From assembly GCF_011045215.1 (NCBI RefSeq), contig NZ_CP049201.1: a DNA stretch of 64,000 nucleotides; one strand, 5' to 3'. Under the pieces are notes generated by a model, which searched no databases, was not told the DNA's origin, and saw only the letters and a list, made by a program, of their open reading frames with translations. The translations under genes and the position numbers were made by a program. Positions 13,962-17,959 of this stretch are shown here, piece by piece. The first letter of the stretch is position 1. Each line of letters begins with the position of its first letter. Origin of the DNA: Escherichia coli. GTDB taxonomy: Bacteria; Pseudomonadota; Gammaproteobacteria; Enterobacterales; Enterobacteriaceae.

Positions 13962-15995
13962 ATGACAGACCTTTCACACAGCAGGGAAAAGGACAAAATC
14001 AATCCGGTGGTGTTTTACACCTCCGCCGGACTGATTTTGTTGTTTTCCCTGACAACGATCCTGTTTCGCGACTTCTCGGCCCTGTGGATTGGCCGCACGC
14101 TGGACTGGGTTTCTAAAACCTTCGGTTGGTACTATCTGCTGGCGGCAACGCTCTATATTGTCTTTGTGGTCTGTATCGCTTGTTCGCGTTTTGGTTCGGT
14201 GAAGCTCGGGCCAGAACAATCCAAACCGGAATTCAGCCTGCTGAGTTGGGCGGCGATGCTGTTTGCTGCCGGGATCGGTATCGATCTGATGTTCTTTTCC
14301 GTAGCCGAACCGGTAACGCAGTATATGCAGCCGCCGGAAGGCGCGGGACAGACGATTGAGGCCGCGCGTCAGGCGATGGTCTGGACGCTGTTTCACTACG
14401 GCTTAACCGGCTGGTCGATGTATGCGCTGATGGGCATGGCGCTCGGATACTTTAGCTATCGTTATAATTTGCCGCTCACCATCCGCTCGGCGCTGTACCC
14501 GATCTTCGGTAAACGGATTAACGGGCCGATAGGTCACTCAGTGGATATTGCGGCGGTGATCGGCACTATCTTCGGTATTGCCACTACGCTCGGTATCGGT
14601 GTGGTGCAGCTTAACTATGGCTTGAGCGTACTGTTTGATATTCCCGATTCGATGGCGGCAAAAGCGGCACTGATCGCCTTGTCGGTGATAATCGCCACTA
14701 TCTCGGTGACATCCGGTGTCGATAAGGGCATTCGCGTGTTATCGGAACTTAACGTTGCGCTGGCGCTGGGGCTGATCCTGTTCGTGTTGTTTATGGGCGA
14801 CACTTCGTTCCTGCTTAATGCACTGGTGCTGAATGTTGGCGACTATGTGAATCGCTTTATGGGCATGACGCTCAACAGTTTTGCCTTCGACCGTCCAGTT
14901 GAGTGGATGAATAACTGGACGCTCTTCTTCTGGGCATGGTGGGTGGCATGGTCGCCGTTTGTCGGCTTGTTCCTGGCGCGTATCTCGCGTGGGCGTACCA
15001 TTCGCCAGTTCGTGCTGGGCACGTTGATTATTCCGTTTACCTTCACGCTGTTATGGCTCTCGGTGTTCGGCAATAGCGCGCTGTATGAAATCATCCACGG
15101 CGGCGCGGCATTTGCCGAGGAAGCGATGGTCCATCCGGAGCGCGGCTTCTACAGCCTGCTGGCGCAGTATCCGGCGTTTACCTTTAGCGCCTCTGTCGCC
15201 ACCATTACTGGCCTGCTGTTTTATGTGACCTCGGCGGACTCCGGGGCGCTGGTGCTGGGGAATTTCACCTCGCAGCTTAAAGATATCAACAGCGACGCCC
15301 CCGGCTGGCTGCGCGTCTTCTGGTCGGTGGCGATTGGCCTGCTGACGCTCGGCATGCTGATGACCAACGGGATATCCGCGCTGCAAAACACCACGGTGAT
15401 TATGGGGCTGCCGTTCAGCTTTGTGATCTTCTTCGTGATGGCGGGGTTGTATAAATCTCTGAAGGTAGAAGATTACCGCCGTGAAAGTGCCAACCGCGAT
15501 ACCGCACCGCGACCGCTGGGGCTTCAGGATCGCCTGAGCTGGAAAAAACGTCTCTCGCGCCTGATGAATTATCCGGGCACGCGTTACACTAAACAGATGA
15601 TGGAGACGGTCTGTTACCCGGCAATGGAAGAAGTGGCGCAGGAGTTGCGGTTGCGCGGCGCGTACGTGGAGCTAAAAAGCCTGCCACCGGAAGAGGGACA
15701 GCAGTTGGGTCATCTGGATTTGTTGGTGCATATGGGCGAAGAGCAAAACTTTGTCTATCAGATTTGGCCGCAGCAATATTCGGTGCCGGGCTTTACCTAC
15801 CGCGCACGAAGCGGTAAATCGACCTACTACCGGCTGGAAACCTTCCTGTTAGAAGGCAGCCAGGGCAACGACCTGATGGACTACAGCAAAGAGCAGGTGA
15901 TCACCGATATTCTTGACCAGTACGAGCGGCACCTTAACTTTATTCATCTCCATCGTGAAGCGCCGGGCCATAGCGTGATGTTCCCGGACGCGTGA
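13962..15995 (+). CDS. betT: High-affinity choline transporter (BCCT family)
   Basis: 677-aa ORF, multi-pass membrane protein with long hydrophilic C-terminal tail; divergent from betIBA. Confidence 0.95.
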   Translation: MTDLSHSREKDKINPVVFYTSAGLILLFSLTTILFRDFSALWIGRTLDWVSKTFGWYYLLAATLYIVFVVCIACSRFGSVKLGPEQSKPEFSLLSWAAMLFAAGIGIDLMFFSVAEPVTQYMQPPEGAGQTIEAARQAMVWTLFHYGLTGWSMYALMGMALGYFSYRYNLPLTIRSALYPIFGKRINGPIGHSVDIAAVIGTIFGIATTLGIGVVQLNYGLSVLFDIPDSMAAKAALIALSVIIATISVTSGVDKGIRVLSELNVALALGLILFVLFMGDTSFLLNALVLNVGDYVNRFMGMTLNSFAFDRPVEWMNNWTLFFWAWWVAWSPFVGLFLARISRGRTIRQFVLGTLIIPFTFTLLWLSVFGNSALYEIIHGGAAFAEEAMVHPERGFYSLLAQYPAFTFSASVATITGLLFYVTSADSGALVLGNFTSQLKDINSDAPGWLRVFWSVAIGLLTLGMLMTNGISALQNTTVIMGLPFSFVIFFVMAGLYKSLKVEDYRRESANRDTAPRPLGLQDRLSWKKRLSRLMNYPGTRYTKQMMETVCYPAMEEVAQELRLRGAYVELKSLPPEEGQQLGHLDLLVHMGEEQNFVYQIWPQQYSVPGFTYRARSGKSTYYRLETFLLEGSQGNDLMDYSKEQVITDILDQYERHLNFIHLHREAPGHSVMFPDA

Positions 15996-16008
15996 TTGTT
16001 ATTGCATA

Positions 16009-16046
16009 AAACCGCGCCATGTTTGCATATGGCGCGGTTTCTCTTA
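16009..16046 (+). terminator. Candidate intrinsic terminator downstream of betT
   Basis: aaaccgcgccat / atggcgcggttt 12-bp GC-rich stem with 8-nt loop, followed by ctcttacc (weak U-tract). Confidence 0.5.
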
Positions 16047-16870
16047 CCTCTTGATACGTTATATCTGTACGGTTAAGCCCTTAGTATCGATTGATGATTG
16101 CCAGGCAACAGATAATAAAAAAGAAAAGAACTATTGAAGCCCAAAACCTACATTTGGACTGTTGTGAATGTTCAATAAGCTTAGTCTTATTTAATGTAAA
16201 TATTGGTGCTAATTTGAAATGACGCTTTATTCATGGGGAACGCGTAGCGCAAATCAACTAAAATCAATGTAACCGTTTGTTGTTTAAGGTTTAATTGTCT
16301 GTGTCTGATATTTTATTGATTGTTTTAAATATTGTTTTTATTGTCATTGTTATAATGTTGGCTATCTATTGCTGAATGGATTCAGTCTTAAAAGGCAGGT
16401 TGTTAAGGGATAGGCATAGAGTAATGACGTGTATGCATAACCAACATCTTTACTCATTATGTCATTGAATGTTGACGCTATGTGTTTATGAGGTTGAGGT
16501 ATTTTCAGTTGATCTGGATTGTTAAATTCATATAATGCGCCTTTACTCATGAGTGGGCATCAATACGTAGTGGGAAATTATAAATATCGAAATAGTCCAA
16601 CTACTTCTTCATTACCAAAAATGAGTATCTGAATTTTAATATTGCATTCTTGCGTGATTATCTCCTGAGTTTGACTTGTGATTACCTTTTTAAGGTATTT
16701 AGCGTAACTGTTTTTGAGCGAGCATCAGAGGTAAAGATAATCTTCTTGATAGTGATGTGGGATGTTATACGTATGGCATCGCTAATGTTTATGGTTACCC
16801 CTTATGTGTGCTCAGGAATCCACAGGTAATCACTCATACTGAACAGCGATAAAAGATAAAAGGTGTGTTC

Positions 16871-17959
16871 ATGAATTCATGTGATTTTCGTGTTTTTCTG
16901 CAAGAGTTCGGTACAACGGTTCATTTGTCATTGCCTGGTAGCGTATCCGAGAAAGAACGACTGCTACTCAAGCTGCTGATGCAGGGAATGTCTGTAACAG
17001 AAATATCACAGTACAGAAATCGCAGTGCAAAGACAATTTCACATCAAAAGAAACAGCTCTTTGAGAAACTGGGGATTCAGAGCGATATTACTTTCTGGCG
17101 CGATATTTTCTTTCAGTACAATCCGGAGATCATATCCGCCACGGGTAGTAATAGTCATAGATATATTAATGATAATCACTATCACCATATCGTCACGCCT
17201 GAAGCCATCAGTCTGGCGTTGGAAGACCACGAATTCAAACCGTGGATCCAACCGGTTTTCTGCGCGCAGACTGGGGTACTGACGGGCTGTGAGGTGCTTG
17301 TCCGCTGGGAACATCCACAAACGGGAATTATCCCACCGGATCAGTTTATTCCTCTGGCGGAGTCATCCGGTCTTATTGTCATAATGACCCGCCAACTGAT
17401 GAAACAGACTGCGGATATTCTGATGCCGGTAAAACATTTGCTGCCGGATAATTTCCATATTGGTATCAACGTCTCGGCGGGTTGTTTTTTGGCCGCGGGA
17501 TTTGAAAAAGAATGCCTGAATCTGGTCAAGAAATTAGGAAACGATAAAATCAAACTGGTTCTCGAGCTAACGGAACGTAACCCTATTCCGGTAACGCCAG
17601 AAGCCAGAGCGATATTTGACAGCCTTCATCAGCACAACATTACCTTTGCGCTGGATGACTTTGGTACGGGTTATGCGACCTATCGTTATCTGCAGGCGTT
17701 TCCGGTCGATTTTATTAAGATCGATAAGTCATTTGTGCAAATGGCGAGTGTCGACGAAATCTCCGGTCATATTGTGGACAATATTGTCGAACTGGCGCGT
17801 AAGCCTGGTCTGAGTATCGTAGCGGAAGGGGTAGAGACCCAGGAGCAGGCGGATTTAATGATCGGTAAAGGCGTTCACTTTTTGCAGGGCTATTTGTACT
17901 CCCCGCCAGTTCCGGGTAATAAATTTATCTCTGAATGGGTAATGAAAGCAGGTGGTTGA
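16871..17959 (+). CDS. pdeL: c-di-GMP phosphodiesterase PdeL (LuxR-type HTH + EAL domain)
   Basis: ORF 16865..17959; start at ATG 16871 (MNSCDFRVFLQEF), 362 aa; N-terminal LuxR HTH and C-terminal EAL domain (ELTE, DDFGTGYA). Confidence 0.95.
   Translation: MNSCDFRVFLQEFGTTVHLSLPGSVSEKERLLLKLLMQGMSVTEISQYRNRSAKTISHQKKQLFEKLGIQSDITFWRDIFFQYNPEIISATGSNSHRYINDNHYHHIVTPEAISLALEDHEFKPWIQPVFCAQTGVLTGCEVLVRWEHPQTGIIPPDQFIPLAESSGLIVIMTRQLMKQTADILMPVKHLLPDNFHIGINVSAGCFLAAGFEKECLNLVKKLGNDKIKLVLELTERNPIPVTPEARAIFDSLHQHNITFALDDFGTGYATYRYLQAFPVDFIKIDKSFVQMASVDEISGHIVDNIVELARKPGLSIVAEGVETQEQADLMIGKGVHFLQGYLYSPPVPGNKFISEWVMKAGG

What the first reader, a model, noticed from the sequence alone, without database searches (positions are those of the whole stretch)
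15996..16870. 875-bp AT-rich non-coding region upstream of pdeL
This is an unusually long intergenic region for E. coli, AT-rich with many A/T tracts, in front of a c-di-GMP phosphodiesterase that also carries a DNA-binding domain. That architecture fits a nucleoid-protein-silenced, autoregulated promoter, and the region could also hold an unannotated small RNA or small protein. The only ORF in it (16362..16550, minus strand, 62 aa) has no convincing RBS or domain.
Basis: partly seen in the sequence, partly recalled or inferred. Interest (0 to 1): 0.3.

Follow-up and report, generated by a model that had tools for sequence, protein, structure and literature searches.

The report
Known pdeL control region, with yahV
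This AT-rich 875-bp gap is the already-studied control region of the E. coli c-di-GMP phosphodiesterase gene pdeL; it also holds the tiny gene yahV, and its promoter module matches the one in front of the adhesin gene ehaA in other strains.

Summary
betT ends at 15995 and pdeL starts at 16871. The 875 bp between them are 34.9% G+C, the lowest of any 875-bp stretch in the 64-kb window.

Published K-12 oligonucleotides place the parts in the window:
- distal PdeL box (CIB), 16174-16191
- Cra box, 16371-16386
- sigma-70 promoter TTGATC-16-TATAAT, 16509-16536, about 330 nt upstream of the ATG rather than next to it

The region is not fully non-coding. The 24-codon ORF yahV (16301-16375) is intact; its K-12 orthologue is a detected protein. 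The 62-aa minus-strand ORF is not conserved.

New here: 1,400 of 5,426 complete E. coli genomes carry ehaA (O-island 15) in this gap instead. An identical Cra box, a full PdeL-box palindrome and the same promoter precede ehaA. The two alleles are old: dS is 0.90 across the first 104 pdeL codons and 0.11 in the rest. PdeL/Cra control of ehaA is a prediction, not shown.

Verdict: a real, known feature of modest interest.

The parts
15996..16870 (.). The whole betT-pdeL spacer (K-12-type allele): 875 bp, 34.9% G+C
   Evidence: At least 80% of it is present in 3,650 of 5,426 complete E. coli genomes.
16009..16040 (+). Terminator-like hairpin after betT (12-bp perfect stem, 8-nt loop). This is the last sequence shared with the ehaA-type allele.
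   Evidence: Inverted repeat I1. The equivalent hairpin in L048 was flagged as terminator-like, on the minus strand only; nothing was flagged in the window. Identity to L048 is 100% up to 16035.
16174..16191 (.). Distal PdeL box (CIB, Cra-independent): palindrome AATAAG-N6-CTTATT, overlapping a published H-NS site
   Evidence: The K-12 CIB EMSA oligos map to 16161-16227. The pattern is unique in the 64-kb window. Its half-sites are invariant in 10 E. coli genomes and in two diverged Escherichia lineages, while the flanks vary.
16301..16375 (+). yahV orthologue: 24-codon GTG-initiated ORF, VSDILLIVLNIVFIVIVIMLAIYC, a hydrophobic single helix. Its stop codon lies inside the Cra box.
   Evidence: K-12 annotation b4730; alignment; translation. 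Intact in 10 of 10 sampled E. coli spacers. Disrupted in L004 and L005. Tagged protein detected in K-12 (PMC6001520).
16371..16386 (.). Cra box GCTGAATGGATTCAGT
   Evidence: Identical to the K-12 sequence in the Cra EMSA oligo. It is the only match in the window to the Cra-type palindrome GCTGAATCGATTCAGC at up to 3 mismatches. The 15-mer GCTGAATGGATTCAG is invariant in all alleles, including the one upstream of ehaA.
16384..16399 (.). [quoted passage not shown]
   Evidence: The window differs from the 30-nt K-12 CB/CDB oligo at 5 positions, all in the CDB half. This segment varies between strains.
16509..16536 (+). pdeL sigma-70 promoter: -35 TTGATC, 16-nt spacer, -10 TATAAT. The transcription start is inferred at about 16543.
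   Evidence: Consensus scan, 10 of 12. The same hexamers are listed for the betT-yahA spacer in RpoD genomic SELEX (PMC3946193). It lies inside the published RNAP-binding fragment, which maps to 16370-16548. Conserved in all alleles, including E. albertii.
16544..16870 (+). Inferred pdeL leader of about 327 nt. The last roughly 100 nt (16765-16870, including SD AAGG at 16860-16863) are much more conserved than the rest of the spacer.
   Evidence: Invariant fraction 0.80-0.88 against a spacer mean of 0.52. No significant RNA structure (z = -1.27 and +0.69). Little covariation.
16362..16550 (-).
   Evidence: Open in close E. coli relatives but broken in L004 and L005. No family match reaches significance. 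It lies antisense to the Cra box and promoter, whose conservation explains why it stays open.
16871..17959 (+). pdeL (LuxR-type HTH plus EAL c-di-GMP phosphodiesterase)
   Evidence: Pfam GerE and EAL; annotation of relatives.
16036..17170 (.). Deeply diverged haplotype block: the spacer plus the first ~100 codons of pdeL. It alternates with the ehaA / O-island 15 allele in other E. coli.
   Evidence: Against the ehaA-type E. coli L048, the betT 3' end is 98.9% identical, pdeL nt 1-300 are 77-83%, and 96-99% in the next bins (93-100% across the rest). dS is 0.90 against 0.11.

Best explanation
The segment is the cis-regulatory region of pdeL, in the K-12-type allele of the betT-pdeL spacer. In order it holds:
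- the betT terminator hairpin
- a distal PdeL operator (CIB)
- the small ORF yahV
- a Cra box with an adjacent weak PdeL site (CDB)
- a near-consensus sigma-70 promoter
- a leader of about 327 nt ending at the pdeL ribosome-binding site

Mechanism, shown for K-12 in the literature and inferred here from sequence identity: H-NS coats the AT-rich DNA and silences the promoter. Cra binds its box and helps PdeL bind next to it. When c-di-GMP is low, PdeL tetramers engage both CDB and CIB, displace H-NS and recruit RNA polymerase. The result is a cooperative, bistable positive feedback loop.

The spacer is long because the operators are spread over about 370 bp upstream of a promoter that itself sits about 330 bp from the gene. 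yahV is translated in K-12, but its sequence is not under detectable purifying selection.
For: - The locus is betI-betT / pdeL-yahB-yahC.
- The published K-12 oligos for CIB, the Cra box plus CDB, and the RNAP fragment map to 16161-16227, 16370-16399 and up to 16548.
- Published functional data cover Cra and PdeL binding, H-NS competition at CIB, hns derepression and c-di-GMP dependence. H-NS repression is restated.
- RpoD SELEX lists TTGATC-16-TATAAT and H-NS for this spacer. The scan finds the same promoter at 16509-16536.
- Phylogenetic footprint. Between spacer-type lineages the spacer diverges at about the neutral rate: 78% and 74% identity, where pdeL dS is 0.17-0.38. CIB, the Cra box, the core promoter and the proximal leader nevertheless stay invariant.
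- The yahV ORF is intact here and in all 10 sampled E. coli. The protein was detected in K-12.
Against: - No experiment exists for this strain.
- I could not read a measured transcription start. The position of about 16543 is inferred from the -10 element and from the limits of the published RNAP fragment.
- The CDB half-site differs from K-12 at 5 positions, so the strength of autoregulation here is uncertain.
- The H-NS high-affinity motif is no more frequent than composition predicts. H-NS binding rests on the K-12 literature and on AT content.
- The strongly conserved last ~100 nt of the leader has no assigned function, and its folding is not significant.
Confidence: 0.85

Rival explanations
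1. The spacer is mainly an evolutionary leftover. It is the K-12-side counterpart of O-island 15, formed when an ehaA-pdeL unit lost ehaA or when a foreign ehaA-less allele replaced it. On this view its length reflects history more than function, and the pdeL promoter is the former ehaA promoter.
For: - 1,400 of 5,426 genomes have ehaA in this gap. OI-15 is a 4,643-bp island holding only ehaA.
- An identical Cra box and a homologous TTGATT-16-TATAAT promoter, 131 versus 133 nt apart, precede ehaA.
- E. whittamii has ehaA upstream of pdeL, and E. albertii has ehaA fragments behind the same promoter.
- No sigma-70-like promoter is seen between ehaA and pdeL.
- The allelic block is ancient: dS 0.90 in pdeL codons 1-104.
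Against: - tblastn finds no EhaA remnant in the window, K-12, L004 or L005 spacers.
- Outside the Cra box and core promoter, similarity to OI-15 is no better than shuffled sequence. A simple deletion is therefore not demonstrable.
- Conserved islands inside the spacer show present-day function.
- This reading is compatible with the best explanation rather than an alternative to it.
Confidence: 0.35
2. The region's main product is YahV, a functional small membrane protein that acts on BetT, PdeL or osmotic and motility signalling. On this view the gap is really two ordinary intergenic regions.
For: - The ORF is annotated in K-12 and was detected as a tagged protein.
- It is kept open in 10 of 10 sampled E. 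coli, with a hydrophobic helix retained.
- An SD-like AAGG lies 11 nt upstream of the start.
- A role in osmotic stress or motility has been suggested from co-occurrence (PMC9976479).
Against: - All 8 nucleotide differences between the window and K-12 ORFs change the amino acid, giving 7 of 24 residues different.
- The ORF is destroyed in the two diverged spacer-type lineages, while the flanking DNA motifs persist.
- There is no family model and no clear promoter.
- Its stop codon overlaps the Cra box, so part of its conservation is due to DNA-level constraint.
Confidence: 0.2
3. The spacer encodes an independent small or antisense RNA, for example one made by sigma-S RNA polymerase, that regulates pdeL or yahV. 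A variant of this idea is a type-I-toxin-like yahV/antisense pair.
For: - In vitro run-off arrays on K-12 DNA show the reverse strand of this spacer favoured 2.07-fold by sigma-S RNA polymerase.
- A weak minus-strand promoter-like site lies inside yahV, at 16347 to 16319.
- YahV is short and very hydrophobic.
Against: - No Rfam family matches, even at E <= 1.
- No terminator-like site lies inside the spacer.
- The minus-strand hexamers are weaker in K-12.
- No conserved structure was found.
- The in vitro signal was obtained on naked DNA without H-NS.
Confidence: 0.08

Closest known systems
K-12 pdeL (yahA) regulatory region: H-NS-silenced, activated by Cra and PdeL (Reinders et al. 2016 and 2021; Rangarajan and Schnetz 2018; Shimada et al. 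2005 and 2014)
   Same: It is the orthologous locus, 93% identical over the whole 875 bp with a single 1-nt length difference near pdeL. The Cra box, core promoter and leader architecture are the same, and CIB differs only by one substitution in its spacer.
   Different: There are about 60 substitutions. The CDB half-site differs at 5 of its ~16 positions, and YahV differs at 7 of 24 residues. The function of this allele has not been tested.
O-island 15 / ehaA promoter region of E. coli O157:H7 and other ehaA-positive strains
   Same: It occupies the same chromosomal slot between the betT terminator and the pdeL ribosome-binding site. The Cra box 15-mer is identical. The promoter is homologous (TTGATT-16-TATAAT) at the same distance from the Cra box. 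An exact PdeL-box pattern, AATAAG-N6-CTTAT, is present.
   Different: It carries the 3,984-bp autotransporter gene ehaA and has no CIB-distal region or yahV. The PdeL palindrome lies 23 nt after the Cra box. The remaining sequence is unalignable, and the pdeL 5' end belongs to a different old allele. Its regulation is not described in the papers I could search.
Other H-NS-silenced E. coli promoters with extended upstream and downstream AT-rich elements and IS-mediated activation (bgl, proU, flhDC); from general knowledge
   Same: The DNA is AT-rich and long, silencing is opposed by a specific activator, and insertion sequences land in the region. IS1 at 16424-16431 and at about 16609-16626, and ISEcp1-blaCTX-M-15 at 16487, occur in other strains.
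   Different: Here the anti-silencer is the product of the regulated gene itself, and its activity is set by c-di-GMP. Whether the observed IS insertions activate pdeL is untested.

Membership tests
pdeL autoregulatory promoter region (K-12 type) | Located between betT and pdeL, with sequence orthologous to the K-12 spacer | tested here: met
   93% identity over the full length to K-12-like genomes, with the same flanking genes.
pdeL autoregulatory promoter region (K-12 type) | Distal PdeL box (CIB) palindrome AATAAG-N6-CTTATT | tested here: met
   Found at 16174-16191 and unique in the window. It lies within the mapped EMSA fragment.
pdeL autoregulatory promoter region (K-12 type) | Cra-dependent PdeL box (CDB) next to the Cra box | tested here: inconclusive
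   The position is conserved, but 5 substitutions relative to the K-12 oligo all fall in the CDB half. The segment varies among strains.
pdeL autoregulatory promoter region (K-12 type) | PdeL and Cra binding, and positive autoregulation sensitive to c-di-GMP | not testable with these tools
   Published for K-12 only.
Cra (FruR) regulon promoter | A Cra operator matching the palindromic consensus | tested here: met
   GCTGAATGGATTCAGT at 16371-16386 has 2 mismatches to the idealised palindrome GCTGAATCGATTCAGC. It is identical to the K-12 site bound by Cra with a Kd of 49 nM.
H-NS-silenced AT-rich locus | G+C well below the genome average, with A/T tracts | tested here: met
   G+C 0.349 against 0.52, the lowest in the window. 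A/T-tract density is 2.7-fold the window average.
H-NS-silenced AT-rich locus | H-NS occupancy, and derepression in an hns mutant | not testable with these tools
   Reported for K-12. The motif count here does not exceed the expectation from composition.
YahV small protein | Intact ORF at the orthologous position with the same start and stop | tested here: met
   16301-16375, GTG to TGA, 24 codons, 17 of 24 residues identical to K-12.
YahV small protein | Conservation consistent with selection on the protein | tested here: not met
   All 8 differences between the window and K-12 are non-synonymous. The ORF is lost in L004 and L005.
Described RNA families (Rfam: sRNA, riboswitch, leader) | Covariance-model match | tested here: not met
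   No match up to E = 1 on either strand of 15500-17400.
ehaA pseudogene or deletion remnant | Residual EhaA coding sequence | tested here: not met
   tblastn with EhaA gives nothing significant in the window (best E = 6.7) and no hit in K-12. E. albertii, as a positive control, shows four fragments.

The most novel reading that the evidence does not exclude
The Cra/PdeL/H-NS-controlled 'pdeL promoter' is one version of an older module that drives the autotransporter adhesin gene ehaA in about a quarter of E. coli, including O157:H7, and in other Escherichia species. In those strains an identical Cra box and a complete PdeL-box palindrome sit in front of ehaA, and pdeL lies directly downstream with no recognisable promoter of its own. 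PdeL would then be a local regulator, responsive to c-di-GMP and metabolic flux, of an adhesin that promotes biofilm. The K-12 'autoregulatory switch' would be the same circuit with the adhesin missing. The two forms are an ancient allelic pair that also includes the N-terminal 100 codons of PdeL.
Probability: 0.45. Interest if true: 0.55.

Novelty: already known. Interest (0 to 1): 0.3.

Why it matters
The flagged feature is a textbook-style example of a silenced promoter with an anti-silencing feedback loop. It is well studied, so it adds little by itself.

The comparison with other strains does give a testable idea. The c-di-GMP 'digitiser' PdeL may have evolved as the local regulator of the EhaA adhesin, which would tie sugar-flux sensing (Cra) and c-di-GMP directly to adhesion in EHEC. 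It also shows that K-12 results on pdeL autoregulation should not be carried over unchecked to the ~26% of strains with the ehaA allele. Nor should they be carried over to strains such as this one, whose proximal PdeL site has diverged.

yahV is also a reminder that annotation pipelines miss diverged small ORFs.

Tried and rejected
- Rfam scan of 15500-17400 with permissive thresholds: no match.
- Terminator scan: nothing inside the spacer.
- RNA folding of the inferred leader (z = -1.27) and of its conserved 3' part (z = +0.69): not significant. Consensus folding of four alleles showed an SD-sequestering helix, but with almost no covariation, so it was not adopted.
- A 24-25-codon upstream ORF in the conserved leader (about 16755-16829) stays open in all spacer-type alleles. 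Its substitutions are mostly non-synonymous and show no third-position bias, so it was judged to reflect nucleotide-level conservation.
- The 62-aa minus-strand ORF and a 59-aa plus-strand ORF have no family match that reaches significance and are broken in diverged lineages.
- The second promoter-like site at 16714-16741 has a -10 element that is not conserved in L004 or L005.
- The H-NS high-affinity motif is not enriched beyond composition.
- tblastn for ehaA remnants in the spacer was negative.
- Similarity of the leader and upstream parts to O-island 15 is not above shuffled controls.
- Papers that would give the measured transcription start (Reinders 2016, Rangarajan and Schnetz 2018, Yilmaz 2020, Thomason 2015) are not held in the library.
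- No paper linking ehaA to Cra or PdeL was found.

Full report
**Observation.** The window carries the E. coli bet-yah locus. betI lies on the minus strand, betT runs from 13962 to 15995, pdeL from 16871 to 17959, and yahB and yahC follow on the minus strand. This matches the RefSeq annotation of K-12 and of the closest genome, EC1515, which is 99.8% identical over the spacer. The gap 15996-16870 is exactly 875 bp. Its G+C is 0.349 against 0.52 for the window, and only 0.16% of 875-bp windows in the 64 kb are as low. Runs of six or more A/T are 2.7 times denser than elsewhere. The 62-aa minus-strand ORF at 16362-16550 exists.

**What is annotated and published.** K-12 annotates a 24-codon gene, yahV (b4730), inside this spacer. 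The alignment places its orthologue at 16301-16375 in the window. It is an intact GTG-to-TGA ORF encoding VSDILLIVLNIVFIVIVIMLAIYC. YahV was found by chromosomal tagging in K-12 (PMC6001520) and is described as a single-helix membrane peptide (PMC9976479). PGAP does not call it in EC1515. It calls "hypothetical protein" or "protein YahV" in other sub-alleles.

For pdeL, a preprint from the Jenal group (10.1101/2021.10.01.462762) reports the following.
- There are two PdeL sites: a distal Cra-independent box (CIB) and a Cra-dependent box (CDB) that overlaps the Cra box.
- Cra binds with a Kd of 49 nM.
- PdeL and H-NS compete at CIB.
- An hns mutant is strongly derepressed.
- At low c-di-GMP, PdeL tetramers produce cooperative, hysteretic autoactivation.

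Yilmaz and Schnetz restate the H-NS repression. A genomic SELEX table for RpoD holoenzyme lists the betT-yahA spacer with H-NS and the promoter TTGATC-16-TATAAT (PMC3946193).

**Mapping onto the window.** I used the oligonucleotides in the preprint's Table S4.
- The CIB fragment maps to 16161-16227.
- The Cra/CDB oligo maps to 16370-16399.
- The reverse primer of the RNA polymerase binding fragment maps to 16529-16548.
- The CIB palindrome AATAAG-N6-CTTATT lies at 16174-16191 and is the only match to that pattern in 64 kb.
- The Cra box GCTGAATGGATTCAGT lies at 16371-16386 and overlaps the yahV stop codon.
- The promoter scan finds TTGATC-16-TATAAT at 16509-16536, matching 10 of 12 consensus positions. 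These are the same hexamers as in the SELEX table.

I infer a transcription start near 16543 and a leader of about 327 nt. I could not read a paper with the measured start. The hairpin at 16009-16040 is the likely betT terminator.

**Conservation.** I recovered spacer-type alleles from two diverged Escherichia lineages, L004 (Escherichia sp. E1V33) and L005. In both, ykgEFG takes the place of the bet operon upstream. Their spacers are 78% and 74% identical to the window, and pdeL synonymous divergence is 0.17-0.38. The spacer as a whole therefore drifts at roughly the neutral rate. Against that background, these elements stay invariant:
- CIB
- the Cra box (15 of 15 positions)
- a block at 16450-16478
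- the core promoter, 16521-16543
- above all, the last ~100 nt before the ATG

CIB's half-sites and the promoter are also unchanged in ten sampled E. coli genomes, whereas the CDB segment varies. The window differs from K-12 at 5 positions there.

**Small ORFs.** yahV is open in all ten E. coli sampled. It has lost its start and gained an early stop in L004, and it is frameshifted in L005. All eight nucleotide differences between the window and K-12 copies are non-synonymous. The ORF is therefore expressed, at least in K-12, but shows no sign of selection on its sequence. The 62-aa minus-strand ORF, a 59-aa plus-strand ORF and the other small ORFs are not conserved and match no family at a significant score.

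**RNA.** Rfam gives no match. Folding of the leader is not significant and shows little covariation. The only hint of further transcription is in vitro: the forward strand of the spacer is favoured by sigma-70 RNA polymerase and the reverse strand by sigma-S RNA polymerase (PMC3141248).

**An unexpected relative.** In E. coli FDAARGOS_944 only the first 40 nt of the spacer match. The gap there holds ehaA, a 3,984-bp autotransporter adhesin gene. This is O-island 15 of O157:H7 (PMC8565820). Of 5,426 complete genomes, 3,650 carry at least 80% of the window-type spacer and 1,400 carry the ehaA type.

Upstream of ehaA there is the identical Cra box. Twenty-three nt further on lies an exact AATAAG-N6-CTTAT palindrome, which is unique in that 12-kb locus. 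A TTGATT-16-TATAAT promoter sits 131 nt from the Cra box, against 133 nt in the window. The same arrangement is present in an O157:H7 genome. No promoter-like site lies between ehaA and pdeL. E. whittamii has ehaA upstream of pdeL, and E. albertii has ehaA fragments behind the same promoter.

The window, K-12, L004 and L005 spacers hold no EhaA remnant. Outside the Cra box and core promoter they are no more similar to O-island 15 than shuffled sequence.

**Age of the two alleles.** The allelic difference extends into pdeL. Nucleotides 1-300 are 77-83% identical between the two types. Identity returns to 96-99% in the next bins (93-100% across the remainder), and betT is 98.9% identical. dS is 0.90 for codons 1-104 and 0.11 for codons 105-362. 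The helix-turn-helix core, residues 25-81, is almost invariant at the protein level, so the same DNA boxes are probably recognised by both PdeL forms. For the N-terminal segment, the ehaA-type E. coli allele groups with E. whittamii (dS 0.32) and E. albertii (dS 0.40). The window type is the outlier.

**Interpretation.** The best-supported account is that this is the known pdeL control region working as described for K-12. Its length comes from widely spaced operators plus a long leader.
- The region is not wholly non-coding.
- The 62-aa ORF is neither the only ORF nor a real gene.
- The promoter is distal.

The ehaA comparison suggests that the module originally drove, or in many strains still drives, an adhesin gene with pdeL downstream. 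The shared motifs are shown. PdeL/Cra control of ehaA is a prediction. I found no paper describing it, but many relevant journals are not in the library.

**Verdict.** The feature is real, its main content is already known, and it is of modest interest.

Noticed in passing
window 16036-17170; L048 6041-10998: The spacer and the first ~100 codons of pdeL form a deeply diverged allelic block. dS against the ehaA-type E. coli allele is 0.90, compared with 0.11 for the rest of pdeL. The low-G+C zone coincides with this block.
   Followed up: yes
L048 6169-6331; L052 728-782: In ehaA-positive E. coli, including O157:H7, an identical Cra box, an exact PdeL-box palindrome 23 nt later and a homologous TTGATT-16-TATAAT promoter precede ehaA. 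No promoter-like site lies between ehaA and pdeL.
   Followed up: partly
window 16765-16870: The last ~100 nt of the pdeL leader are 80-88% invariant across alleles whose synonymous sites differ by 0.2-0.4. No significant RNA fold, conserved coding pattern or recognisable site explains this.
   Followed up: partly
window 16424-16431, about 16609-16626, and 16487 (insertion points seen in L049, L050, L051): Other strains carry mobile elements inside this spacer. IS1 sits between the Cra box and the promoter (GN04204). IS1A sits in the leader (LR-33). An ISEcp1-blaCTX-M-15 unit sits just upstream of the -35 element, and the spacer beyond 16487 (including pdeL) is missing from the fetched locus (EC2257).
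   Followed up: partly
window 16384-16399: The Cra-dependent PdeL box differs from K-12 at 5 positions and varies among E. coli sub-alleles, whereas the distal box and the Cra box do not.
   Followed up: partly
L006 329-1039: E. albertii NBRC 107761 has four EhaA-coding fragments, a decayed ehaA, between the conserved promoter and pdeL.
   Followed up: partly
L004 and L005, 1-3100: In Escherichia sp. E1V33 the spacer-type allele follows ykgE/F/G directly (ORFs read). In both E1V33 (L004) and SCPM-O-B-8794 (L005) no betT sequence aligns upstream.
   Followed up: no
window 15996-16870, minus strand (K-12 IG330721_331594-r): Published in vitro run-off arrays show the reverse strand of this spacer transcribed 2.07-fold better by sigma-S than by sigma-70 RNA polymerase. 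A weak minus-strand promoter-like site lies at 16347 to 16319, inside yahV.
   Followed up: no
L008 (Stappia sp. BW2, 385-nt contig); L013 (Collinsella MAG contig): These contigs hold E. coli-like pdeL or ehaA-pdeL sequence (99% and 82-98% protein identity). They are most likely contamination of those assemblies.
   Followed up: no
summary: Eleven matches to the spacer lie on records labelled as plasmids in the E. coli collection. These were not examined.
   Followed up: no
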